Positions 1,713 to 33,740 of a DNA stretch of 33,740 bases are shown piece by piece. The translations under genes and the position numbers were made by a program. Source of the DNA: Clostridia bacterium (GTDB taxonomy: Bacteria > Bacillota > Clostridia > Oscillospirales > CAG-272). Position 1 is the first letter of the stretch, and each line of letters begins with the position of its first letter. Location of the stretch: contig JAFYBI010000032.1 of assembly GCA_017540285.1 (NCBI GenBank), forward strand, positions 1-33,740. Direction: 5' to 3'. Below the pieces are notes generated by a model, which saw only the letters and a list, made by a program, of their open reading frames with translations, did not search any database and was not told the DNA's origin.

Positions 1713-2474
1713 TCATGACCAGAAATCCGTCATGCTTTCTCCCGTGACGGACGGGCACTTATCCAGTCCGATCTTCTGAAGAAAAGCGCGGATTTGTTCC
1801 GTTAGAGCGTCTTCGGGGATTGGTTCCGCGTTACCGGCGAACGGAGAGGATGAGGCGATCCAGTCCGTCAGGATCAGAAGCGCGGTCATCGTCGTACACG
1901 CGGCGTCCACATGTTTGAGCTGATCGAAACACATCACCGGAGGGGTAAAACGGTCGCGAATCCTTTTCTCGATCGTATCCTGAACCTGTACCCAGTCAGG
2001 ATAAGCGCTTGTCAGAGCAGGGACGACATATCCGCCTTTTTTCCCCTGATGATGGAGCTGCAGGATCTGGGAAAAGCAGATTCGCAGATCCGTATCGAAC
2101 AAACCTTCTCTTTTCCATATTCTTTTAACGATTTCCGCACTCCCTCTCTCATGACGGTACGTATTTTCTGGTATCCATACGGAGAGTTCGGGGTGTTTTT
2201 CCAAAAACACCTGTACAAAGCCGACGAGTTTATTGAAAGCAAAATACGGGAACGCCTTTCCTTCGTCATGCATCCCGGCAAGATACTGCGCCAGACGAAT
2301 CGTGTCCTCCTCCGACAAGCCCAGCCACTCCGCCAGATCCGGCAGCAGGTTTGAAAAAACGCTGTTTGTCAGCAAGATCTTGATGACGATCGCCGCCTCA
2401 TACAGGTGGCACTCCAGCGATTTCCGCGGCTCGCTCTTTGACCAGACAAAACGATCAAGTTCACTATTCACCAT
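1713..2474 (-). CDS. cas3: Cas3 HD-nuclease domain protein (Cas3''), separate ORF
   Basis: ORF 1713..2513. SLECHLYEAAIV, AGMHDEGK and LQLHHQGK fit the HD phosphohydrolase motifs of the Cas3 N-terminal domain. It ends at TGA (1715..1713), directly followed in the same frame by the helicase ATG. Start set at ATG 2474 (GGAGAG a few nt upstream). ATG 2486 and GTG 2513 are alternatives. All three overlap the 3' end of the WYL gene. Confidence 0.75.
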   Translation of the reverse strand: MVNSELDRFVWSKSEPRKSLECHLYEAAIVIKILLTNSVFSNLLPDLAEWLGLSEEDTIRLAQYLAGMHDEGKAFPYFAFNKLVGFVQVFLEKHPELSVWIPENTYRHERGSAEIVKRIWKREGLFDTDLRICFSQILQLHHQGKKGGYVVPALTSAYPDWVQVQDTIEKRIRDRFTPPVMCFDQLKHVDAACTTMTALLILTDWIASSSPFAGNAEPIPEDALTEQIRAFLQKIGLDKCPSVTGESMTDFWS

Positions 2475-3480
2475 CAGACTCTCCATCACACTTTGATTCC
2501 GTAATCTTTTCACAAGCAGCCCTCAGCATTTCGGAATAGGCTGTCTTACTCTGTTCCGGCGCCATGATCCGCACCCGTCCGCCAAACCCGAACACCCAGC
2601 TGTAAAACACATGGTTGACGGCGATCTCAACTTCGATGACGAACTCCGTTTCCCGGTTCTCCGTGACCTTCACGTCCGTCCCGAAGCGGTCGATCATGGC
2701 GTCCATGAGGTCGTTGTCGCAGGACAGCGTAACGGTCTCCCGTTCCGTGCTGTACATCCGGAACATCGTCCCGACATAATCGGAAGGGGAGAAGTCCTCC
2801 GGCGGCGGGACGGCATCCTCGTCCAGGATTTCCGGTGTCCGATATATTCGCTCAATCCGATAACTGCCCATCCCGCCGTGCGTGTCGCACCATCCGATCA
2901 TGTAGTAAAAGTCCCCATTCCAGACCAGGGAGCAGGGGCTGAACACATACGGCTCCCCGTCCCGTTTCAGCTGTTTGTTTTTGCAGGCGTCGTACTGATA
3001 GTACTGAAAGCGGATCTTCTTTTGGAGCCGGATCGCGCGGGACACGGTGTCGGCGATGTAGTATATCTGCTCGTTTTCCGGCTTCCGGTCCGGCGTCGTG
3101 ACGAAATGATGCCGAAGTTGGTCCGCGCCGCCGACGCTGGCGAGTGTCAGCAGCTTATCCGTCAGGGCCTTGCTCTTTTTCTCCGTCACAAAGCGGGAGG
3201 ATCCCACGGCGTCGATCAGAAGCTGCAGCTCGGGAAGCTCGAAGAGGCGGTGGGAGACATAGTACCGGTTCTGAGTCGAGCGCACCGTTTCAATACACAT
3301 CCCGACTTCTGTCAGAAAGCGGATGTCCTCATGGATCGTCCGCGCGTCGGAGGACAGACCGTATTTTTCATTGAGAATCCGGTTTATCTGTGCTGCCGAA
3401 AGCATGTGCGTTTCGTCCGTCTGTTCATACAGCAGCTCCGCGATGCGCCAGAGCCGTTGTTTTCCGGGATTTTTGACCAT
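2464..3480 (-). CDS. WYL-domain transcriptional regulator (N-terminal HTH, central WYL, C-terminal extension)
   Basis: 338-aa ORF. The N-terminus RLWRIAELLYEQTDETHMLSAAQINRILNEKYGLSSDARTIHEDIRFL is a DeoR/HTH_11-like wHTH. The centre IRFQYYQYD...PYVFSPCSLVWNGDFYYMIGWC...YRIERI is a typical WYL core. GGGAGGA RBS lies 5 nt before ATG 3480. Sits immediately upstream of cas3. Confidence 0.8.
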   Translation of the reverse strand: MVKNPGKQRLWRIAELLYEQTDETHMLSAAQINRILNEKYGLSSDARTIHEDIRFLTEVGMCIETVRSTQNRYYVSHRLFELPELQLLIDAVGSSRFVTEKKSKALTDKLLTLASVGGADQLRHHFVTTPDRKPENEQIYYIADTVSRAIRLQKKIRFQYYQYDACKNKQLKRDGEPYVFSPCSLVWNGDFYYMIGWCDTHGGMGSYRIERIYRTPEILDEDAVPPPEDFSPSDYVGTMFRMYSTERETVTLSCDNDLMDAMIDRFGTDVKVTENRETEFVIEVEIAVNHVFYSWVFGFGGRVRIMAPEQSKTAYSEMLRAACEKITESKCDGESDGE

Positions 3481-3506: not shown

Positions 3507-3535
3507 ATTATACCATTGCTGTCATGGAATGTCAA
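3507..3535 (-). promoter_or_regulatory. Consensus sigma-A type promoter for the WYL-cas3 transcription unit
   Basis: Minus strand reads TTGACA (3535..3530), exactly 17 nt, then TATAAT (3512..3507), about 25 nt upstream of the WYL start codon. Confidence 0.6.
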
Positions 3536-25754: not shown

Positions 25755-27269
25755 TCAGCCGCCGTTCTCGTAGAATTCGTTGACCGTGTTGATCATGCGG
25801 CCCGCGATCGATTTGCGCTTCTGGACCAGGGCGGAGATGTTCGGGGACGCGCCCTGCACGATGTCCTTCATCGAATTCTTGAGCGCGCCGACCTGATAGA
25901 TCCAGCCGAGGTCATAGGCGCGGGTCGAGAAGATGATGTCGAGCATCTGCCCGGATTCCTCGTCGCGCGCCGCCTTGCGCTGCAGGGTGATCTCGTAGTA
26001 GGCGGGCATGACGTACCGCTCGGAGAGACAGGCCAGCGCGTCGAGCACGATGCCCGTGAATTCCGGGTCGGACATGACGATCGGGACGGAGAGGAGCACG
26101 CCGTCGTTCTCCGCGACGCAGCTGCGGTAGACGGGCTGTTCCTCGTTGAACTTGGGCATCGGGAGCACGCCGAAATCGGCCTCCATATCGCGGAAGGCGG
26201 TGATCCGGTTGATCTCCTGCATGTAGAACAGCGCGTGGTTCCCTGCGAATAGGTCGTAGGAGCTGTATCCCTTGAAGATGTAGTCCGCGGTGATCTCCGG
26301 ATCGGCGGCGAAGGAGATGAACTTGTCGACGATGTCCTGCACGCGCTCCGTGTCGAGCGTCAGGGCGAGCAGACCGTCCTCGCCGACCTGCGCGCAGTAT
26401 TCAAGCCCGGAGTTGACCGCTCCCGTGATCGAATCGACCCAGAGGCAGAGGCCGAAGAGATCCTTGTCGTCCATTTTGCCGTTGCCGTCGAGGTCGGTCG
26501 AGATCCCGGTCATCATGCCTTTGAGGGCGTCATAGGTCCACTTGCCGTCGAGAACGTCCTGATAGGGCGATTCGAGGTGATACTCCGCCGCTAGCTCCTT
26601 GTTGAAGAGGATCGCGAAGGTGGCGTTGTACGACGCGATGCAGACCGCGTTCACCGCGTGATAGAGCTGGCCGCGGATCGTCATGTCCTCGACCGAGCGC
26701 GCGTCCCACCACGGCTCGCCGAGCGAGACGCCGGGGAGGGTCGTGAGATCGGCGAAATAGCCCTCGAGGGTGATCTTCGCGGCGTCGGTGCAGCAGAGCT
26801 GGGTGGAATTGTAGATCTCGTCGTTCGCCTTGACGGCGGCCTTGAGCTCGCCCATGACGATGCCGCCGTTGCCGAACTGCTCGATCGAGGCGAGGGTGAC
26901 GTTCAGGGTGTCCTCGACCTCGATGTTGCGGTTGAAGCGGCTCGAGTTGATGATCTCGGGATTCTCGGCGTCGGCGTCGATGTTGTTCTGCCGCCACTCG
27001 CCGTTGTCCATGCCGCTGACGAGGACGGTGTAGGTCCGGCCCTCGAAATCATGCGCGCCGAGGTATTCGAGGGGTCTTGCGGGTTCGGTCTCGGGTGTCC
27101 CGGCCTGGTCGCTGCCGGCATCCGCCGCGTCGGGTTCCGTGACGGCGGGGGTATTCCCGGGATCGGCGGCGTTCTTTTCCCCGTTCTTCGCGCAGGACGC
27201 GGAGAGGAGGACAAGAACCGCCGCGAGGAGGAGGCTGAGGGCTCGCGCCGCTCCGTTCGGGTGCTTCAT
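25755..27269 (-). CDS. ABC-transporter extracellular solute-binding lipoprotein (large family-1 SBP, probably glycan-binding)
   Basis: Start at ATG 27269 (AAGGAG RBS). Lipoprotein signal MKHPNGAARALSLLLAAVLVLLSASC followed by a low-complexity linker. About 500 aa, SBP-like. No permease or ATPase genes adjacent. Confidence 0.65.
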   Translation of the reverse strand: MKHPNGAARALSLLLAAVLVLLSASCAKNGEKNAADPGNTPAVTEPDAADAGSDQAGTPETEPARPLEYLGAHDFEGRTYTVLVSGMDNGEWRQNNIDADAENPEIINSSRFNRNIEVEDTLNVTLASIEQFGNGGIVMGELKAAVKANDEIYNSTQLCCTDAAKITLEGYFADLTTLPGVSLGEPWWDARSVEDMTIRGQLYHAVNAVCIASYNATFAILFNKELAAEYHLESPYQDVLDGKWTYDALKGMMTGISTDLDGNGKMDDKDLFGLCLWVDSITGAVNSGLEYCAQVGEDGLLALTLDTERVQDIVDKFISFAADPEITADYIFKGYSSYDLFAGNHALFYMQEINRITAFRDMEADFGVLPMPKFNEEQPVYRSCVAENDGVLLSVPIVMSDPEFTGIVLDALACLSERYVMPAYYEITLQRKAARDEESGQMLDIIFSTRAYDLGWIYQVGALKNSMKDIVQGASPNISALVQKRKSIAGRMINTVNEFYENGG

Positions 27270-27436
27270 CGGGAGATCTCCTTCGGGTTCCGATCGGATT
27301 TTTGTGAGTTTTCCGCACATTCCGAATTATTATAGCACACGGCGGGCGATCCGTCAAGAGAGGATATGGACGGCGGGAAAACGCGGATGGCAGGGGGAGG
27401 CGCGCATGAAAACTGACGCATTTCCCGCATTCGCTC

Positions 27437-27465
27437 TTGACAGGATTTCCCGAATGAGATATAAT
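27437..27465 (+). promoter_or_regulatory. Perfect consensus sigma-A promoter of the MtmB-like/permease unit
   Basis: TTGACA (27437..27442), exactly 17 nt, TATAAT (27460..27465). About 48 nt upstream of the GTG start. Confidence 0.65.
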
Positions 27466-27513
27466 GGTGTCGAAAACAACGGATATATCCCATCTGCCAC
27501 AGGAGGACGGAAC

Positions 27514-28872
27514 GTGCATTTTCTGGAAATTGTCAACCGGGGCTATACCGGCGAAGCGGTGTCCAAGGATGACTGGGACATGGACCACGTGGTCATGCCG
27601 ATCATGGATATCGTCGAAGAATTCGAACTCGAGAGAGAGGACGGCGCGCTCCTGCTTCATGACCGCGAAGAGGCGAAGCGCTTCTTTGACGCGGGCGTCG
27701 AGCTGCTCGTCCGGTCCGGCGTCTACAACCAGTCCACCGGCCGCGTCATGATGTTCACGCGCGAGGAGATCCTCGAAGCCGCCGCGAACATGCCGAAGTC
27801 CGTGACCGTCGGACAGGGGAAGGACGCCTACACGTTCGTCCCCCGCCACCCCGACGACACCCGGCTTCCCGGCGTCGTGGCGGGCAATCCTGGCTGTCCC
27901 ATGTCGGAGGAGCTCTTCTGCAAGACCGTGACCTCGTGGGCGAAGGAACCCGTCGTCGATATGGTCACCTGCGGCTCCATCGTCGAGGTGGACGGCTTCG
28001 ACGTCGTCCGCGCGTCTCCCTCCGAGGTGATCGCCCTGCGGCGCGAGCTCCGTTATCTGAACGAGATCTGCGAAAAGGTCGGGCGTCCCGGCATCGGCAG
28101 GCTCGCGGCGGAAAGCTCCGTCTCCGAGATCGGCGATCTCGCGGCGATGGCTCCCGGCGGATTCCATCCGGGCGACGCGCACCTCATCGCGCTCAACAAC
28201 GAGCTCATCATGACGAACGACAACCTCATCCGCGTCGCCAACGCCATGGAGACGCCCGTCCTCAACGCCTCCCTCGCGTGCGTCATGGTCGGCGGTCTGG
28301 CCGGAGGTGCGGCGGGCGCGGCGGTCTGCATGATCGCTTCCCTGCTCGCGGACTCCCTCGTCGGCCGGGCGGACTACCATCTCTGTCATCCGATCCACAT
28401 CAAACACATCGCCACCTCGACGCCCGAATGCATGTGGCTCTCGAGCGTGGTCTGTCAGGCGTTCGACGCGGGGCTGCCCGCCGTGATCATCTGCGACATC
28501 TACCCGAAGAGCGGCGCGGGCACGAAGGAGCTTCTCGAAGAGGTCGCCGCGAACGCGCTCGCCATCACCGTCTCCGGCGGCAACCTCGAAGGCGTCGGCT
28601 CCTGCGACGGGCTCAAGCCCAACTGCTCCGGCCTGGAAGCGCGCCTCATGGGCGAGGTCGGAAAGGCCGCCGCGGCGCAGGGCATGACCCGGGAAGAAGC
28701 CGAGCCCATCATCGCCGCGCTCGTCGCAAAGTACGGGCACATCTTCGAGACCGGCAACGAGGGCCTCTCCTTCGACGAGGTCTACGGCGAGGACGGCGAA
28801 CCGCGCGACTTCTGGCTGGCCATGTACCGGGAGGTCCGCGAAGAGCTGATCTCGCTCGGCGTAAAGCTGTGA
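27514..28872 (+). CDS. Monomethylamine methyltransferase (MtmB) family protein, non-pyrrolysine form
   Basis: Start at GTG 27514 (AGGAGGA 6 nt upstream, downstream of the promoter). 452 aa. GEAVSKDDWDM, FFDAGVELLVRSGVYN, VGQGKDAY, GRPGIG, LNNEL and GLEARLMGEVGKA parallel Methanosarcina MtmB blocks as I recall them (GEKCTQDDWDL, LFKAGFEMLLECGIYC, GRPGMGV-Pyl-GPETS, GMEARMMGEVARA). The ORF has no internal TAG. Confidence 0.7.
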   Translation: MHFLEIVNRGYTGEAVSKDDWDMDHVVMPIMDIVEEFELEREDGALLLHDREEAKRFFDAGVELLVRSGVYNQSTGRVMMFTREEILEAAANMPKSVTVGQGKDAYTFVPRHPDDTRLPGVVAGNPGCPMSEELFCKTVTSWAKEPVVDMVTCGSIVEVDGFDVVRASPSEVIALRRELRYLNEICEKVGRPGIGRLAAESSVSEIGDLAAMAPGGFHPGDAHLIALNNELIMTNDNLIRVANAMETPVLNASLACVMVGGLAGGAAGAAVCMIASLLADSLVGRADYHLCHPIHIKHIATSTPECMWLSSVVCQAFDAGLPAVIICDIYPKSGAGTKELLEEVAANALAITVSGGNLEGVGSCDGLKPNCSGLEARLMGEVGKAAAAQGMTREEAEPIIAALVAKYGHIFETGNEGLSFDEVYGEDGEPRDFWLAMYREVREELISLGVKL

Positions 28873-28923
28873 TCCCGCGCGGAGAGTCCGCGCAGAAATA
28901 TATCATTCAGGGGGAAAACAACC

Positions 28924-30510
28924 TTGGAAGCAAAAAAGAAAAGCCTGATCCCCTTCTTCACGAAGGGTGACGTCGGCGGGTTGACGTATATGATCACCAA
29001 CAATATCGTCAACTACATCATCATCATCGCAACCCTCGAGGGCTTCGGATGGCCGTCCGAGATCATCTTCGGACGCGTGATCCCCGGCCTGTCCATCGGT
29101 CTGATGTGCGGCGGCCTCTACTATGCCTGGATGGCCCGGAAGCTGTCCGCCAAGCTCGAGCGTCCCGACGTGACCGCGCTGCCCTCCGGCATCTCGACGC
29201 CCGCGATGTTCGTCATCCTGTTCGGCGTCATCAGCCCGATCCACTACGCGATCGGCGATCCCGAAACCGAATGGGGCGCGGCGATGGCTGCCTGCTTCAT
29301 CGGCGGCTTCGTCGAATTCCTCGGCGGCTTTATCGGCCCGTGGGTCAAGAAGCATCTGCCCCGCGCGGCGCTTCTCGGCACCGTGGCCGGCATCGGCTTC
29401 ATCTGGATGGCGACGCAGGGCGTGTTCGACGTCTTCGGCGATCCCGTCGTCGGCCTCCCGATCCTCGCGGTCGCCATGCTCGGCCTCTTCGCCGGTTATC
29501 TCTTCCCGAAAAAGATCTCTCCCTTCATGGTGGCGATCGTCGGCGGCATCGTGTATGCGATCTGCCTCGGCCGCACCACCTTTGACTTCACGCAGGTGGG
29601 CTTCTATTTCCCGAACCCCGTGAACACCATCCAGTCCCTCGTCAACGGCTTCGCGTACGTCGCTCCCTACCTGACCGTGGTCATCCCGGTGGAGATCTAC
29701 AACTTCATCGAGACCATGGACAACGTGGAGTCCGCGAACGCGGCGGGCGATCCCTACAACGTCCGGGAAGCTCAGTTCGCCGACGGCTGCTGCACGATGA
29801 TCTCCTCCCTCTTCGGCGGCGTGGTCCCGAACACCGTCTGGCTCGGCCATCCCGGCCTGAAGAAGACGAACGCCGGCGCGGCTTACAGCTGGATCAGCGG
29901 CGTGGTCCTCGGCCTGGCGGGCATCTTCGGCCTCTTCACGGTGCTTGACGACCTCGTTCCTCCGGCAGTCGTCGCCATCACCTTCCTGTGGTGCGCGGTC
30001 ATCATGGTGGCGCAGGCCTTCAAGGAATGCAAGCCGAAGCACTACGCGGCCATCGCCATCGCCATGGTTCCCTCCATCGCCGACTATCTCTTCACGCAGG
30101 TGGAAGCGGCTCTCGCGACCGGTTCCATGGCGGAAGGCGGCTGGGGCATCTGGTCCGAGGCGCTCGATTCCGGCATCAAGGGCTTCCAGCCTGAGATCTC
30201 CGAAATGCTCATCGCCAACGGCGCGATGTGGAACGGCGTTCCCGCGGTCAAGGCCGGCGCGATCATCATCGGCATCCTGCTCGGCTCCATGTGCGTCTTC
30301 ATGATCGAGCGCAAGCTGAGAAGCGCGTCCCTCATCGCCCTGGCCGGCGCGGTGCTCTCCTTCTTCGGATTCATCCACCACGCGGCCCTCGGCATCTACC
30401 TGACCTCTCCCTTCATGATCGGCTGGCTCATCGTCGCGGTGATCCTCTTCATCCTGAGCTTCGGAGAAGGCAAGTGGTTCAAGGCCCAGGACGACTTCGA
30501 ATACGTATAA
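28924..30510 (+). CDS. Polytopic permease, probably NCS2/AzgA-like (xanthine/uracil permease superfamily)
   Basis: 528 aa, about 12-14 hydrophobic segments. TTG start at 28924 (GGGGGA 8 nt upstream), kept because the conserved-looking N-terminus FFTKGDVGGLTYMITNNIV would be lost with the next ATG. PVEIYNFIETMDNVESANAAGD resembles the AzgA-type mid-protein motif. Family assignment is tentative. Confidence 0.55.
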   Translation: MEAKKKSLIPFFTKGDVGGLTYMITNNIVNYIIIIATLEGFGWPSEIIFGRVIPGLSIGLMCGGLYYAWMARKLSAKLERPDVTALPSGISTPAMFVILFGVISPIHYAIGDPETEWGAAMAACFIGGFVEFLGGFIGPWVKKHLPRAALLGTVAGIGFIWMATQGVFDVFGDPVVGLPILAVAMLGLFAGYLFPKKISPFMVAIVGGIVYAICLGRTTFDFTQVGFYFPNPVNTIQSLVNGFAYVAPYLTVVIPVEIYNFIETMDNVESANAAGDPYNVREAQFADGCCTMISSLFGGVVPNTVWLGHPGLKKTNAGAAYSWISGVVLGLAGIFGLFTVLDDLVPPAVVAITFLWCAVIMVAQAFKECKPKHYAAIAIAMVPSIADYLFTQVEAALATGSMAEGGWGIWSEALDSGIKGFQPEISEMLIANGAMWNGVPAVKAGAIIIGILLGSMCVFMIERKLRSASLIALAGAVLSFFGFIHHAALGIYLTSPFMIGWLIVAVILFILSFGEGKWFKAQDDFEYV

Positions 30511-30536
30511 TCCCTCCTCCCCGCATCAACGATATG

Positions 30537-30588
30537 CTCCCTCCGGCCGCGGCGGTATCCTGCCGTCCCTCCCCGGAGGGAGTTTTTT
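30537..30588 (+). terminator. Rho-independent terminator after the permease gene
   Basis: CTCCCTCCGG (30537..30546) pairs with CCGGAGGGAG (30573..30582), followed by TTTTTT (30583..30588). Confidence 0.65.
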
Positions 30589-31690: not shown

Positions 31691-33040
31691 TCATTCCGCC
31701 GGCATGTTGACGATCCCGACGAAGACCGGGAGACCGCCCTCGGTCACGGCGAAGAGGAACGGGCGGTCGAAGGTGAGCGTGATCGGTTCGGGCTCCCAAT
31801 CTCCCGCGCCGTCCATTTCGAGGAACACATACGACGCCGCCGTGCATCCCTCCTCGTCGATCGCCACCCGCGCGGCATGCTCCGCCCTGGTGAGGTAAAC
31901 CGTCGTCGCCTCCGTCAGCGGAGAGAAATCCGCCGCCGCTTCGTCAAGCACATCGGTCACGCCGAGGGTCTGCAAGCCGTCCATGAGGTCGGTATCCGAG
32001 GAGACGTCGAACTTCGGCAGGGCCAGCTCGATCCTGGCTTCGATCTGTCCGTCAAAGCTCATCCAGTCCGCGATGAGCGCGAGGAATTCCGGATCCCCGG
32101 CAAGCTCTTCCGGCGTCACGCCCTCGTCCGGGAGGAGGAAGAACATCTGCGCATTCATCGTGAAGGAACGGGCAAACGCCGTGAACCGTTCGCCGCGGAA
32201 CGCGACCGAGGTGAAGGTGTCATGCATGAAATCGGCTGTCACGTCCCCGTCCTGTGCGTGAAAGACGCCCGGCGCGGTGTTTTCTTTTTGGAATTCATCC
32301 GTCCAGCGGCCACGGAAATACACGGTCGAGGCGAGGGTCATCACCCCGCGCGGATCGAAAGCATGACCTGCGATGTGCTCCGCGAGGAGGTTCTCCGTCT
32401 GCCGGTTGATCCAGTCGGCAAAGGCCCGGTCGTATTTTTCGTCCCCCATGCGCCCGCTGTAAGTCGAGGCGAAGTAATCGGCCGCGAGGCGTTCGGGGAC
32501 GTCCCGCTTCAGATCGGCCGCGTCGTTCATCCAGAGGGAGTTCGCGAGCAGGCATTTCCCTCTGTCCGAATCCCGGAAGGCCTTCTTCCAGACCATTGTG
32601 ACCGCCGTCCGCTGCGCTTCGAGGTTCCCCTCTCCGAGGAGGCTGAGGATCTGTTCCCTGCTCTCCCCGTCGGTGCACTCGGCGAGCATCCCGAGCGCGA
32701 CGTAGAGGTTGACGGGCGAATACACGCGGTTCTTCCCCGCTTCGCCGCCGAGGAATACGGGAATGCTCTTTTCGAGGAATCCGAAAAGCCCCGCGGGCGT
32801 CTCCGTCACTCTTTCGACAGACGCCGGATAGACCGCTTCGGCGACGGCATAGGCGGGCGTCGCGCTCTTCGCGAAGGCCCAGACGACCGCCGTCACCCCG
32901 ATGAGGACCGCCGCCGCGGACGCTGCGTACCGTTTCCAGCTTGCTTTTCGTTTCCGTGCGGGCTCTTCCCCCGCGCCGATGGCAAGATCCTCGCCGATCT
33001 CGCCGATGGCCCGATACAGTTTTTCGCTCTTTTCGCTCAT
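31691..33040 (-). CDS. Single-pass membrane protein with extracytoplasmic full-length serpin domain, putative anti-sigma factor
   Basis: 449 aa. Short charged N-terminus, then TM helix YAASAAAVLIGVTAVVWAFA. Serpin blocks follow: SPVNLYVALGMLAECTDGESREQILSLL, LANSLWMN, WINRQTENLL, LASTVYFRGRWTDEF, MFFLLPDEG, LALPKFDV, HAARVAIDEEGCTAAS (hinge), FDRPFLFAV. The start ATG overlaps the sigma stop (ATGA). AAGGAGGGG RBS. Confidence 0.85.
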   Translation of the reverse strand: MSEKSEKLYRAIGEIGEDLAIGAGEEPARKRKASWKRYAASAAAVLIGVTAVVWAFAKSATPAYAVAEAVYPASVERVTETPAGLFGFLEKSIPVFLGGEAGKNRVYSPVNLYVALGMLAECTDGESREQILSLLGEGNLEAQRTAVTMVWKKAFRDSDRGKCLLANSLWMNDAADLKRDVPERLAADYFASTYSGRMGDEKYDRAFADWINRQTENLLAEHIAGHAFDPRGVMTLASTVYFRGRWTDEFQKENTAPGVFHAQDGDVTADFMHDTFTSVAFRGERFTAFARSFTMNAQMFFLLPDEGVTPEELAGDPEFLALIADWMSFDGQIEARIELALPKFDVSSDTDLMDGLQTLGVTDVLDEAAADFSPLTEATTVYLTRAEHAARVAIDEEGCTAASYVFLEMDGAGDWEPEPITLTFDRPFLFAVTEGGLPVFVGIVNMPAE

Positions 33041-33597
33041 AATCCGATCCCCTCCTTTTCGAGTGCCGCCTTCAGCTTCTTTCTGAGGCGGAACATCCGC
33101 TGCGCCAGCCGTGCCGCATCCTCGCCGGATGCCTCGGCCAGCCGGTTCAGCGCGTCGCCGTACCAGTACCGCCGCAGAAACAGTCTCCGGTCCTCTTCGT
33201 CAAGCGACCGCAGCCACCGGTCCACGGCGAGGCCGATCTCTTTCGCCTCCGCCGCATTCTCCGGTCCCGCCGACGGGTCCGGGACGCATTCGTCCAGCTC
33301 GCTGAGCAGCACGTCGAGACGCCCGTCCCGCTTCTGCGCGCGGTTTCGGCGAAAGCGGTCGACGGCGATGTTGCGCACAACCCGTCCGAGCCATGCGCGG
33401 AGATTCTCCGGCTTTTGTTCGGGCATCGACGTCCAAGCCTCGTAGTACGTGTCGTTCACGCACTCCTCCGCGTCCTCCCGGGTGTCCGAGAGATTCCGCG
33501 CGAGCGAGAGGCAGAACGCGCCGTACTTGCGCTCGGTCTCGGGGATCGCGTCCTCGCTCCGCTGCCAGTACAATCCGACGATCTGATTGTCGTCCAT
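33037..33597 (-). CDS. ECF-type (sigma-70 family, regions 2 and 4) RNA polymerase sigma factor
   Basis: Start at ATG 33597 (AAGGAG 6 nt upstream). DAEECVNDTYYEAW (region 2.1-2.2), WLGRVVRNIAVDRFRR (2.3-2.4), LSLDEEDRRLFLRRYWYGDALNRLAEASGEDAARLAQRMFRLRKKL (region 4 HTH). Confidence 0.85.
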   Translation of the reverse strand: MDDNQIVGLYWQRSEDAIPETERKYGAFCLSLARNLSDTREDAEECVNDTYYEAWTSMPEQKPENLRAWLGRVVRNIAVDRFRRNRAQKRDGRLDVLLSELDECVPDPSAGPENAAEAKEIGLAVDRWLRSLDEEDRRLFLRRYWYGDALNRLAEASGEDAARLAQRMFRLRKKLKAALEKEGIGL

Positions 33598-33740
33598 ATC
33601 CAACTCCTTTCTCCGGATCGCTCCGGTGGTCTTCATGGAATACAGTCGGATTTTTGCGCACGATATTGGCGTCATGAGCGAAATTTCGGGTCAGGATTCT
33701 GTTTTTTCGAGGATCCGGATCCTCCGGCCCTCCTCGCGGA

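What the first reader, a model, noticed from the sequence alone, without database searches (positions are those of the whole stretch)
27437..30588. Non-pyrrolysine MtmB-family methyltransferase paired only with a permease, under a perfect consensus promoter
**Seen**
- This is a self-contained unit: a TTGACA-17-TATAAT promoter, an AGGAGGA-GTG start, a 452-aa protein, a 528-aa polytopic permease, then a strong terminator.
- The protein shows several blocks collinear with archaeal monomethylamine methyltransferase MtmB.
- The ORF has no internal TAG. In the GRPGIGRLAAESS block, the position I align (from memory) to pyrrolysine in GRPGMGV-Pyl-GPETS is a Leu codon (CTC, about 28102..28104).

**Established**
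- MtmB uses pyrrolysine to activate monomethylamine and needs a cognate corrinoid protein (MtmC), a second methyltransferase and an activase.
- Non-Pyl relatives of the unrelated MttB family turned out to be quaternary-amine (betaine, carnitine) methyltransferases.

**Inference**
- No corrinoid protein, second methyltransferase or activase gene lies within the window.
- This may therefore be an uncharacterised enzyme acting on whatever the adjacent permease imports, and it may not be a methylamine methyltransferase at all.
- I know of no characterised non-Pyl MtmB homologue.
Basis: partly seen in the sequence, partly recalled or inferred. Interest (0 to 1): 0.7.

Follow-up and report, generated by a model that had tools for sequence, protein, structure and literature searches.

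The report
Pyrrolysine-free MtmB enzyme tied to adenine uptake
A two-gene operon in a rumen Clostridia bacterium pairs a purine-type importer with a pyrrolysine-free relative of the methanogen enzyme MtmB, and comparison with relatives suggests it strips methyl groups from imported methylated adenine using vitamin B12 chemistry, a substrate class not yet reported for this enzyme family.

Summary
**Observation.** It is confirmed in every detail:
- a perfect TTGACA-17-TATAAT promoter;
- a GTG start;
- a 452-aa full-length Pfam MtmB protein with Leu (CTC 28102-28104) at the pyrrolysine position;
- a 528-aa permease and a terminator;
- no corrinoid, second-methyltransferase or activase gene in the window.

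**What is not new.** Pyl-free MtmB homologues are a large known group. One, MtqB (tetramethylammonium/choline), was characterised in 2026.

**What is new: the context.**
- Across 80 species, the orthologue sits next to this permease (36 loci) or a Bmp-type nucleoside ABC transporter (28 loci).
- It sometimes also sits next to adenine deaminase or adenine phosphoribosyltransferase.
- It never sits within 10 kb of a B12-binding protein.
- The permease family is otherwise preceded by tandem adenine deaminases.
- Deeper relatives (41-48% identity) share the same active-site signature, HLCHP[IV]H.
- These relatives lie in complete corrinoid operons (corrinoid protein, MtrH- or MtaA-type second methyltransferase, RACo activase).
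- Two of those operons (L175, L178) also carry a true adenine deaminase and a purine-type transporter.

**Best reading (about 0.55).** This is the importer plus substrate-specific methyltransferase of a corrinoid-dependent N-methyladenine demethylation system, with partners encoded elsewhere. The substrate is inferred, not shown.

The parts
27437..27465 (+). Sigma-70 promoter, TTGACA-17 nt-TATAAT, perfect consensus
   Evidence: It matches 12/12. An exact match is expected 0.00 times by chance. It is conserved in L011, L012, L015 and L016.
27502..27508 (+). Ribosome-binding site AGGAGGA, 5 nt before the GTG start
   Evidence: Read directly from the sequence.
27514..28872 (+). Pyl-less MtmB-superfamily TIM-barrel protein (452 aa), HLCHP[IV]H subfamily; predicted substrate-specific methyltransferase (MT1)
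   Evidence: It matches Pfam PF05369 at E 2.8e-86 over the full length and PDB 1L2Q at E 1e-58. The AF2 model has pLDDT 92.9 and TM 0.95 to 1L2Q. There are 902 homologues.
28102..28104 (+). CTC codon for Leu197, the residue aligned to pyrrolysine-202 of M. barkeri MtmB
   Evidence: Shown by the HMMER alignment to 1L2Q and by the sequence. Leu197 is invariant in 20 homologues.
28378..28398 (+). Subfamily signature H289-L-C291-H292-P-I-H295 on barrel strand beta-6 (MtmB has HLDGPVH); possible metal or substrate site
   Evidence: These columns are invariant. The strand is E288-295 in the model. The motif is shared with the corrinoid-linked relatives P0241, P0242, P0398 and P0394.
28877..28893 (+). 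Intercistronic GC-rich hairpin (7-bp stem GCGCGGA/TCCGCGC, loop GAG) just after the MtmB-like stop codon, with no T-run
   Evidence: Seen in the sequence. RNAfold gives -18.7 kcal/mol for 28869-28925. Its function was not tested.
28924..30510 (+). 528-aa polytopic permease (TTG start, RBS GGGGGA 28910-28915); 7+7-TM nucleobase/anion-transporter fold; family otherwise co-transcribed with adenine deaminases
   Evidence: It has no Pfam or NCBIfam hit. Source databases name it an AGZA/xanthine-uracil permease. Foldseek hits are BicA, SLC26, UraA and UapA. Its neighbourhood is shown.
30566..30588 (+). Intrinsic terminator (TCCCTC-CCCG-GAGGGA, then G + T6)
   Evidence: Found by the terminator scan and seen in the sequence.

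Best explanation
**What the operon is.** It is the substrate-specific module of a corrinoid-dependent demethylation pathway for an imported N-methylated adenine. N6-methyladenine is the prime candidate.

**Proposed steps**
1. The permease brings the adenine-type base into the cell. It belongs to a distinct 7+7-TM family that elsewhere serves adenine deaminase operons.
2. The Pyl-less MtmB-family TIM barrel acts as methyltransferase I. It moves the N-methyl group onto the Co(I) of a corrinoid protein.
3. In this organism the corrinoid protein, the methyl-corrinoid:tetrahydrofolate (or thiol) methyltransferase and the reductive activase are encoded outside the window.
4. The product adenine is then salvaged by Apt or deaminated by adenine deaminase.

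**Why no pyrrolysine is needed.** In MtmB, pyrrolysine forms a ring-C-NH-CH3 adduct with methylamine. In methyladenine the methylamino group is already attached to a ring carbon next to a ring nitrogen. The purine itself would therefore play the role of pyrrolysine. The pocket has made room for it: Pyl becomes Leu197, and the positions aligned to MtmB Glu229 and Glu259 become Leu224 and Leu254.

**Shown:** family membership, fold, absence of Pyl, gene neighbourhoods, and corrinoid operons in sister lineages.

**Inferred:** the substrate, the methyl acceptor, and the existence of partners in trans.
For: **Family and fold**
- The protein is a full-length MtmB by Pfam and PDB, and its model superposes on 1L2Q.
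- Both characterised family members, MtmB and MtqB, are methyl:corrinoid methyltransferases (PMC13044021).

**Neighbourhood in 80 species**
- 36 loci have this permease directly downstream on the same strand.
- 28 loci have an adjacent Bmp-family nucleoside-type ABC transporter.
- 7 loci have an adenine deaminase.
- 4 loci have adenine phosphoribosyltransferase, which passes the NCBIfam equivalog cutoffs.

**Permease family**
- In 80 metagenome loci, it is preceded by adenine deaminase genes in 65 (in most of them as the ADE1-ADE2 tandem) and by the MtmB-like gene in 8.
- The same arrangement with deaminases is seen in C. paraputrificum and Desulfonispora.
- ADE2 passes the adenine deaminase equivalog cutoff and ADE1 does not.
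- When the MtmB-like gene co-occurs with a deaminase, it is never the ADE1 type: ADE2 is always the better match, at 62-69% in L024, L085, L088 and L127 but only 39-43% in L059, L080, L086 and L090.

**Relatives sharing the active-site signature lie in complete systems**
- L175: permease homologue (53% identical) - adenine deaminase (TIGR01178 657 > 472) - corrinoid protein - MtaA-type MT2 - MtmB-like - PocR/AraC.
- L178, 'Ca. Formimonas warabiya': NCS1 nucleobase transporter - corrinoid protein - MtmB-like - MtrH/MtgA-like MT2 - adenine deaminase (625 > 472) - PucR.
- L172: RACo activase - corrinoid protein - MtmB-like - ECF transporter.
- L179: ECF transporter - corrinoid protein - MtmB-like - MtrH.

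**Precedents**
- Several MT1 enzymes can share one set of partner proteins. E. limosum MtyB, MtcB and MtpB all use the same MtqC, MtqA and RamQ (PMC8604678).
- Adenine-deaminase-family enzymes that act on N6-methyladenine are known (PMC8643624).
Against: - No B12-binding domain lies within 10 kb of the gene in any of 90 loci of the close clade or in the window. The same search finds the sister-lineage corrinoid proteins at 1e-21 and 1e-17. If partners were needed, some clustering would be expected.
- The whole genome could not be searched, so partners in trans are assumed.
- The substrate is inferred from neighbours only.
- The permease has no significant sequence similarity to a proven adenine permease: E. 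coli AdeQ gives E 0.26 by BLASTP and 0.13 by hhalign.
- Two transporter types found in relatives resemble hydroxymethylpyrimidine transporters rather than purine transporters: the PF09819 ECF S component and a CytX-like NCS1.
- A neutral amidine N-methyl group is a poorer methyl donor than a quaternary amine.
- The roles of MtmB Glu229, Glu259 and Gln333 are recalled from memory (Hao et al. 2002). They could not be verified in the held literature.
Confidence: 0.55

Rival explanations
1. The substrate class is the same (an imported adenine-type base), but in this clade the enzyme works without any corrinoid protein. It could transfer the methyl directly to a metal-activated thiol such as homocysteine, as BHMT, MetE and MtaA-type chemistry does. 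Alternatively it could act hydrolytically at C6, as an N6-substituted adenine deaminase, filling the slot of the divergent deaminase paralogue ADE1.
For: - No corrinoid protein, MT2 or RACo appears in 90 loci, so the conserved unit is just transporter plus enzyme.
- The gene occupies the operon position that adenine deaminases hold upstream of the same permease family.
- The clade-specific invariant Cys/His residues include an H-x-C motif like the zinc motif of thiol methyltransferases (that motif is recalled from memory). The residues are C153, C256, H289, C291, H292, H295, C306 and C327. They lie on barrel strands.
Against: - The HLCHP[IV]H motif is equally present in the relatives that do have adjacent corrinoid proteins, so it is not a replacement for corrinoid chemistry.
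- No family member is known to have such an activity.
- C327 and C306 are not conserved in P0241 or P0242.
- Co-occurrence with a true adenine deaminase argues against simple redundancy.
Confidence: 0.17
2. The enzyme is a corrinoid-dependent demethylase, but for a different imported heterocyclic amine. Candidates are a methylated or methoxylated aminopyrimidine (thiamine-pyrimidine analogues, N4-methylcytosine) or a methylated nucleoside. Adenine deaminase would then be only loosely linked.
For: - Relatives use a PF09819 (YkoE-like) ECF S component.
- One relative uses an NCS1 transporter whose best NCBIfam match is the putative hydroxymethylpyrimidine transporter CytX.
- Bmp-type ABC systems usually carry nucleosides (established knowledge).
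- The Bmp protein here weakly matches a 'putative B6' binding protein model.
- The permease is not demonstrably an AzgA-family member.
Against: - True adenine deaminase equivalogs sit inside the operons of L175 and L178 and next to the gene in 7 of 80 loci.
- Adenine phosphoribosyltransferase is present in 4 loci.
- The permease family follows adenine deaminases in 65 of 80 metagenome loci.
Confidence: 0.12
3. It is a genuine methylamine methyltransferase that works without pyrrolysine. It would use methylamine released inside the cell from imported N6-methyladenine by an adenine-deaminase-family enzyme (6-MAD type).
For: - The family name and fold fit.
- Deaminases of this family can release methylamine from N6-methyladenine (PMC8643624).
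- A deaminase and the MtmB-like gene share operons in L175 and L178.
Against: - Pyl is replaced by Leu. The positions aligned to acidic residues of MtmB are also Leu, which is a poor pocket for a small cation.
- MtqB, the one studied non-Pyl member, shows only trace methylamine activity (PMC13044021).
- Most loci, including the window, have no deaminase nearby.
- The deaminases present are adenine deaminase equivalogs.
Confidence: 0.05
4. It is an MtqB-like quaternary amine (tetramethylammonium, choline or similar) methyltransferase, and its pairing with the permease says nothing about purines.
For: The only characterised non-Pyl MtmB homologue has this activity (PMC13044021).
Against: - The protein is only 30% identical to MtmB.
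- It lies far from the representatives closest to Pyl-MtmB, whereas MtqB branches near the Pyl-MtmBs.
- There is no adjacent MtqC-type corrinoid protein.
- The link to purine genes is systematic across four transporter types.
Confidence: 0.04

Closest known systems
MtmB, monomethylamine:corrinoid methyltransferase of Methanosarcina barkeri (PDB 1L2Q/1NTH)
   Same: It has the same Pfam family and length, and the same TIM-barrel fold (TM 0.95, rmsd 1.6 A). GRPG, D221/H223, E200, E230, H289 and H295 are conserved.
   Different: - Identity is 30%.
- Pyl202 is replaced by Leu197, and there is no UAG.
- The positions aligned to E229, E259 and Q333 are Leu, Leu and Asp.
- HLDGPVH becomes HLCHPIH.
- There is no adjacent MtmC.
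- It is bacterial and paired with a permease.
MtqB, non-Pyl MtmB homologue of Methanococcoides methylutens Q3c (tetramethylammonium/choline:corrinoid methyltransferase; PMC13044021)
   Same: It is a Pyl-less MtmB-superfamily member. It is the precedent that such proteins are real methyl:corrinoid methyltransferases whose substrates mimic the Pyl adduct.
   Different: - MtqB is reported to branch next to the Pyl-MtmBs and to sit beside its corrinoid protein MtqC.
- The window protein belongs to a distant branch, has no adjacent corrinoid protein, and is linked to purine rather than quaternary-amine genes.
- No MtqB sequence was available for a direct comparison.
Non-Pyl MttB-superfamily methyltransferases of Eubacterium limosum (MtpB, MtcB, MtyB) with shared MtqC/MtqA/RamQ
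   Same: The logic is the same: a Pyl-less relative of a methylamine methyltransferase takes a larger methylated amine. Several MT1 enzymes also share one set of partner proteins (PMC8604678).
   Different: They belong to a different protein family. MttB is only a distant structural neighbour (Foldseek E 1e-10, TM about 0.54). Their substrates are quaternary amines, not nucleobases.
Adenine deaminase / N6-methyladenine deaminase operons (E. coli adeD-adeQ; Bh0637/Bsu06560 6-MAD)
   Same: The permease family here is co-transcribed with adenine deaminase paralogues in most genomes, as adeQ neighbours adeD in E. coli. 6-MAD enzymes provide another route for disposing of N6-methyladenine (PMC8643624).
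   Different: The enzyme here is not an amidohydrolase. The permease shows no significant sequence similarity to AdeQ.

Membership tests
MtmB superfamily (Pfam PF05369) | Full-length match to the family HMM above the gathering score | tested here: met
   The score is 290.5 bits against a cutoff of 25, covering positions 4-449 of 450.
MtmB superfamily (Pfam PF05369) | MtmB TIM-barrel fold | tested here: met
   The AF2 model has pLDDT 92.9. Foldseek to 1L2Q, 1NTH and 1TV2 gives E 4e-44, TM 0.95 and rmsd 1.6 A.
Pyl-dependent monomethylamine methyltransferase (MtmB proper) | In-frame UAG / pyrrolysine at the position of Pyl202 | tested here: not met
   Leu197 (CTC 28102-28104) aligns to Pyl. It is invariant in 20 homologues.
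Pyl-dependent monomethylamine methyltransferase (MtmB proper) | Adjacent cognate corrinoid protein MtmC | tested here: not met
   No B12-binding domain is found in the window or in 90 related loci.
Pyl-dependent monomethylamine methyltransferase (MtmB proper) | pylTSBCD genes in the genome | not testable with these tools
MtqB-type tetramethylammonium/choline methyltransferase | Membership of the clade next to the Pyl-MtmBs, with conserved Met/Cys pocket residues (PMC13044021) | tested here: inconclusive
   Identity to MtmB is 30%. The query does not group with the representatives closest to MtmB (P0271, P0303, P0290). No MtqB sequence was available.
MtqB-type tetramethylammonium/choline methyltransferase | Adjacent MtqC corrinoid protein | tested here: not met
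   No B12-binding domain was found near the gene.
Three-component corrinoid methyltransferase system (MT1 + corrinoid protein + MT2 + activase) | All components encoded together or at least in the genome | tested here: inconclusive
   Only the MT1 homologue is in the window. Subfamily members in L172, L175, L178 and L179 have adjacent corrinoid protein, MT2 and/or RACo. The genome-wide search was not possible.
Three-component corrinoid methyltransferase system (MT1 + corrinoid protein + MT2 + activase) | Methyl transfer from substrate to Co(I) | not testable with these tools
   This needs a biochemical assay.
NCS2/AzgA-type purine permease | Match to Pfam Xan_ur_permease or significant similarity to a characterised member | tested here: not met
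   There is no Pfam hit even at E <= 10. E. coli AdeQ gives BLASTP E 0.26 and hhalign E 0.13. Only the source databases name it AGZA family.
NCS2/AzgA-type purine permease | 7+7 TM inverted-repeat (UraA/UapA/SLC26) fold | tested here: met
   Foldseek hits BicA, SLC26Dg, UraA and UapA at E 1e-5 to 1e-7. The model is only moderate (pLDDT 69, TM about 0.4-0.5).
NCS2/AzgA-type purine permease | Genomic association with purine metabolism | tested here: met
   Adenine deaminase genes lie directly upstream in 65 of 80 metagenome loci, in most of them as the ADE1-ADE2 tandem, and in two named genomes.

The most novel reading that the evidence does not exclude
The HLCHP[IV]H subfamily of Pyl-less MtmB proteins would be an anaerobic, corrinoid-dependent demethylase for the epigenetic base N6-methyladenine (or another N-methyladenine). 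It would be the first nucleobase-demethylating member of the methylamine methyltransferase superfamilies. In it the purine ring of the substrate itself replaces pyrrolysine as the carrier of the methylamino group. In rumen and gut Clostridia the enzyme has been reduced to an importer + MT1 module that draws on shared partners.
Probability: 0.4. Interest if true: 0.85.

Novelty: new variant of a known kind. Interest (0 to 1): 0.65.

Why it matters
**For the enzyme family.** Non-Pyl MtmB homologues number in the hundreds of sequence clusters, yet only one has an assigned function. A purine-linked subfamily would give the second function and a new substrate class, nucleobases rather than simple or quaternary amines.

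**For the pyrrolysine question.** It would offer a concrete chemical rationale for why pyrrolysine is dispensable, because the substrate resembles the Pyl-methylamine adduct.

**For ecology.** It would describe an oxygen-independent route by which gut and rumen anaerobes recycle methylated adenine from degraded DNA and RNA. This route would run alongside hydrolytic N6-methyladenine deamination and would feed methyl groups into one-carbon metabolism.

**For experiments.** The prediction is directly testable with cultured carriers and standard cob(I)alamin assays.

Tried and rejected
**Searches that found nothing**
- NCBIfam gave no hit for either protein.
- Pfam at E <= 10 gave nothing meaningful for the permease. 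A PDB sequence search for the permease found nothing.
- Rfam found no riboswitch or other RNA family in the window or in six related loci. No purine riboswitch supports the substrate call.
- There is no tRNA, and so no tRNA-Pyl, in the window.

**Comparisons that were uninformative**
- Direct comparison of the permease with E. coli AdeQ was not significant. AzgA membership is therefore not claimed.
- PDB searches with the two deaminase paralogues both hit only A. tumefaciens adenine deaminase. They could not tell whether ADE1 is a 6-MAD type.
- The contexts of two further sister representatives, P0244 and P0249, sat on contigs under 3 kb and said nothing.

**Literature checks**
- Searches for MtmB plus adenine, and for the Pyl-contact residues Glu229, Glu259 and Gln333, found nothing usable. 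The role of those residues rests on memory.
- A non-Pyl MtmB-superfamily protein, Ga0180325_111810, is the most strongly DCM-induced protein of 'Ca. Formimonas warabiya'. I could not establish whether it is the purine-linked copy or the second, unrelated homologue in the same region.

**Idea set aside**
- I considered that the enzyme simply replaces adenine deaminase. I rejected it as the leading idea once corrinoid operons were found in relatives carrying the same signature.

Full report
**1.

The region 27437-30588 is a compact two-gene operon.
- A perfect TTGACA-17-TATAAT promoter lies at 27437-27465. It matches 12/12. An exact match is expected 0.00 times in 100 shuffles.
- The two hexamers are kept in relatives L011, L012, L015 and L016 while the flanks diverge.
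- AGGAGGA (27502-27508) precedes a GTG at 27514.
- The 452-aa product aligns from residue 1 with 452-aa homologues.
- It matches Pfam MtmB end to end, E 2.8e-86, and M. barkeri MtmB (1L2Q) at E 1e-58.
- The pyrrolysine of 1L2Q aligns to Leu197, codon CTC 28102-28104.
- An AlphaFold2 model (pLDDT 92.9) superposes on 1L2Q with TM 0.95 and rmsd 1.6 A.
- A 7-bp hairpin follows the stop codon.
- The 528-aa permease starts at a TTG at 28924 behind a GGGGGA site.
- A 6-bp stem plus T6 terminator ends the unit at 30588.

**2. The window**

It is 62.7% G+C. It carries Firmicute housekeeping genes:
- RqcH/NFACT, Lon, EngB, LysA, ScpA/B, a spore protein, DacB, RluB and glycerate kinase;
- a fucosidase, ThrE, a PAS protein, a lipoprotein, two GNATs, a serpin and a sigma factor.

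No corrinoid protein, second methyltransferase, activase or tRNA is present. The closest genome is a goat-abomasum Clostridia MAG, whose MtmB-like protein is 97% identical.

**3. What is already known**

Non-Pyl MtmB homologues are not new.
- A 2026 paper built a tree of 1,061 MtmB sequences, most of them Pyl-less and of unknown function.
- It showed that one, MtqB of Methanococcoides methylutens, demethylates tetramethylammonium and choline with an adjacent corrinoid protein MtqC (PMC13044021).
- My exhaustive search found 657 clusters at 50% identity with E <= 0.001. The residue at the Pyl column is highly variable.
- The window protein is 30% identical to MtmB. It does not group with the representatives nearest to Pyl-MtmB.

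**4. Neighbourhood of the close clade**

A scan of one genome per species found 161 species with relatives. The best 80 loci (50-97% identity) are rumen and gut Lachnospiraceae, Oscillospiraceae and Christensenellaceae, some Spirochaetes and one Desulfobacterales. The neighbours are as follows.

| Neighbour of the MtmB-like gene | Loci out of 80 |
|---|---|
| The permease, 12-222 nt downstream, same strand | 36 |
| An adjacent Bmp-family ABC transporter | 28 |
| An adenine deaminase | 7 |
| Adenine phosphoribosyltransferase at the head of the ABC operon (passes three NCBIfam equivalog cutoffs) | 4 |
| An aldo-keto reductase fused to a 4Fe-4S domain | 7 |

- Spirochaete loci carry an ECF transporter instead.
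- Unbiased clustering of all flanking ORFs found no other recurrent partner.
- A phmmer search with the E. coli MetH B12 domain recovers MtmC, MttC, MtaC and MtgC-like proteins from the PDB.
- The same search found no B12-binding domain in 7,797 reading frames from 90 loci plus the window, even at E <= 1.

**5. The permease**

- It has no Pfam or NCBIfam hit.
- It shows no significant similarity to E. coli AdeQ.
- Source databases call it an AGZA/xanthine-uracil permease.
- A moderate model (pLDDT 69) matches the 7+7-TM fold of BicA, SLC26, UraA and UapA.

Its genomic company is decisive.
- In C. paraputrificum and Desulfonispora it follows two tandem adenine deaminase paralogues.
- Among 80 metagenome loci, 65 have adenine deaminase genes directly upstream (most as the ADE1-ADE2 tandem) and 8 have the MtmB-like gene. 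The remaining 7 lack the upstream flank or are unclear.
- ADE2 passes the adenine deaminase equivalog cutoff (630 > 472). ADE1 does not (390).
- Where the MtmB-like gene and a deaminase co-occur, the deaminase is never the ADE1 type: ADE2 is the better match, at 62-69% in four loci and only 39-43% in four others. The MtmB-like gene therefore occupies the slot of the divergent paralogue.
- Members of this deaminase family are known to act on N6-methyladenine and N6-methyladenosine (PMC8643624).

**6. The decisive relatives**

The close clade and four deeper relatives share one active-site signature: N125, D221-x-H223-L224, N251-x-x-L254, H289-L-C291-H292-P-[IV]-H295 and D328.
- The four relatives are P0241 (48% identity to the query), and P0242, P0398 and P0394 (41% each).
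- An unrelated MtmB homologue in the same Formimonas region lacks the signature.
- These residues lie on the barrel strands.

The relatives sit in complete corrinoid systems.

| Locus | Source | Gene order |
|---|---|---|
| L172-L174 | Three assemblies | RACo activase - corrinoid protein - MtmB-like - ECF transporter |
| L175 | Metagenome contig | Permease homologue (53% identical to the window's) - adenine deaminase (657 > 472) - corrinoid protein - MtaA-type methyltransferase - MtmB-like - PocR/AraC |
| L178 | 'Ca. Formimonas warabiya' | PocR/AraC - NCS1 nucleobase transporter - corrinoid protein - MtmB-like - MtrH/MtgA-like methyltransferase - adenine deaminase (625 > 472) - PucR |
| L179 | Thermoanaerobacteraceae MAG | ECF transporter - corrinoid protein - MtmB-like - MtrH |

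- The B12 search that found nothing in the close clade finds these corrinoid proteins at 1e-21 and 1e-17.
- Homologues of the L175 MtaA-type gene lie about 1.5 kb beyond the permease in two Christensenella MAGs.

**7. Interpretation**

- The subfamily is a genuine methyl:corrinoid methyltransferase I.
- Its substrate arrives through purine or nucleobase-type transporters of four unrelated families.
- Its product is handled by adenine deaminase or Apt.
- The simplest substrate is an N-methylated adenine, with N6-methyladenine first among the candidates.
- Chemically, the methylamino group on purine C6 mirrors the methylamine-pyrrolysine adduct of MtmB. This extends the substrate-mimicry idea proposed for MtgB and MtqB (PMC13044021).
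- In the window's clade the partner genes are not nearby. E. limosum shows that several MT1 enzymes can share one corrinoid protein, MT2 and activase (PMC8604678).
- Zero of 90 loci with a nearby partner is still a real caveat. A corrinoid-independent variant is therefore the main rival.

**8. Limits**

- The substrate identity is inferred.
- The roles of MtmB Glu229, Glu259 and Gln333 come from memory.
- The ECF and NCS1 transporters of some relatives resemble hydroxymethylpyrimidine carriers. A related aminopyrimidine substrate is therefore not excluded.

**9. Verdict**

Its hunch that the enzyme acts on what the permease imports, possibly a nucleobase, is supported. Its claims that no non-Pyl MtmB is characterised and that the unit is self-contained are not. 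I rate this a new variant of a known kind, with interest 0.65.

Noticed in passing
L002:11592-15764 (also L003, L004): In the lineage of P0044 (66% identical MtmB-like, 327 member sequences), the permease is split exactly between residues 254 and 255. The cause is a 2.6-kb insertion carrying a group II intron reverse transcriptase on the opposite strand. The intron could not splice from the permease mRNA, so the permease is probably inactivated there while the MtmB-like gene stays intact.
   Followed up: partly
window 3507-3535 (- strand): A second perfect TTGACA-17-TATAAT promoter lies 27 nt upstream of a WYL/WCX-domain regulator gene (2464-3480, -). That gene is followed by a stand-alone Cas3 HD-domain gene (1713-2513, -). 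Two perfect consensus promoters occur in 33.7 kb against 0.00 expected.
   Followed up: no
window 27329-27357 (- strand) and 25755-27320 (-): A divergent near-consensus promoter (TTGACG-17-TATAAT with an extended -10 TG, 11/12) faces away from the MtmB-like promoter. It drives a 521-aa lipoprotein that has a signal/lipobox-like N-terminus and no Pfam or NCBIfam hit.
   Followed up: no
window 31691-33040 (-) and 33037-33675 (-): A bacterial serpin (Pfam Serpin, E 1e-52) is translationally coupled, with a 4-nt overlap, to an upstream sigma-70 family (ECF-like) factor. Serpins are uncommon in bacteria.
   Followed up: no
L102-L171 (metagenome loci), L007, L008: A very conserved three-gene operon is widespread in human-gut metagenomes and in Clostridium paraputrificum and Desulfonispora. 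Its order is divergent adenine deaminase paralogue (ADE1, below the equivalog cutoff), true adenine deaminase (ADE2), then the 521-aa permease. The role of ADE1 (possibly an N6-substituted adenine deaminase) is unknown.
   Followed up: partly
L178:15347-18385 ('Ca. Formimonas warabiya' CP017634.1): Directly after the purine-linked MtmB system and a PucR regulator lies a second system: corrinoid protein, a different non-Pyl MtmB homologue (25-31% identical, lacking the signature) and a pterin-binding methyltransferase. A non-Pyl MtmB-superfamily protein, Ga0180325_111810, is the most dichloromethane-induced protein of this organism (PMC9768040). Which copy it is could not be determined.
   Followed up: partly
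L040, L052, L067, L074, L075 (e.g. L067:8785-9972): An aldo-keto reductase fused to a 2x[4Fe-4S] ferredoxin domain sits immediately next to the MtmB-like gene in 7 of 80 loci. Its role is unexplained. It might be an electron-transfer or activation partner.
   Followed up: no
window 28877-28893: A GC-rich hairpin without a T-run lies between the MtmB-like stop codon and the permease ribosome-binding site. It may stabilise the mRNA or tune the ratio of the two products.
   Followed up: no
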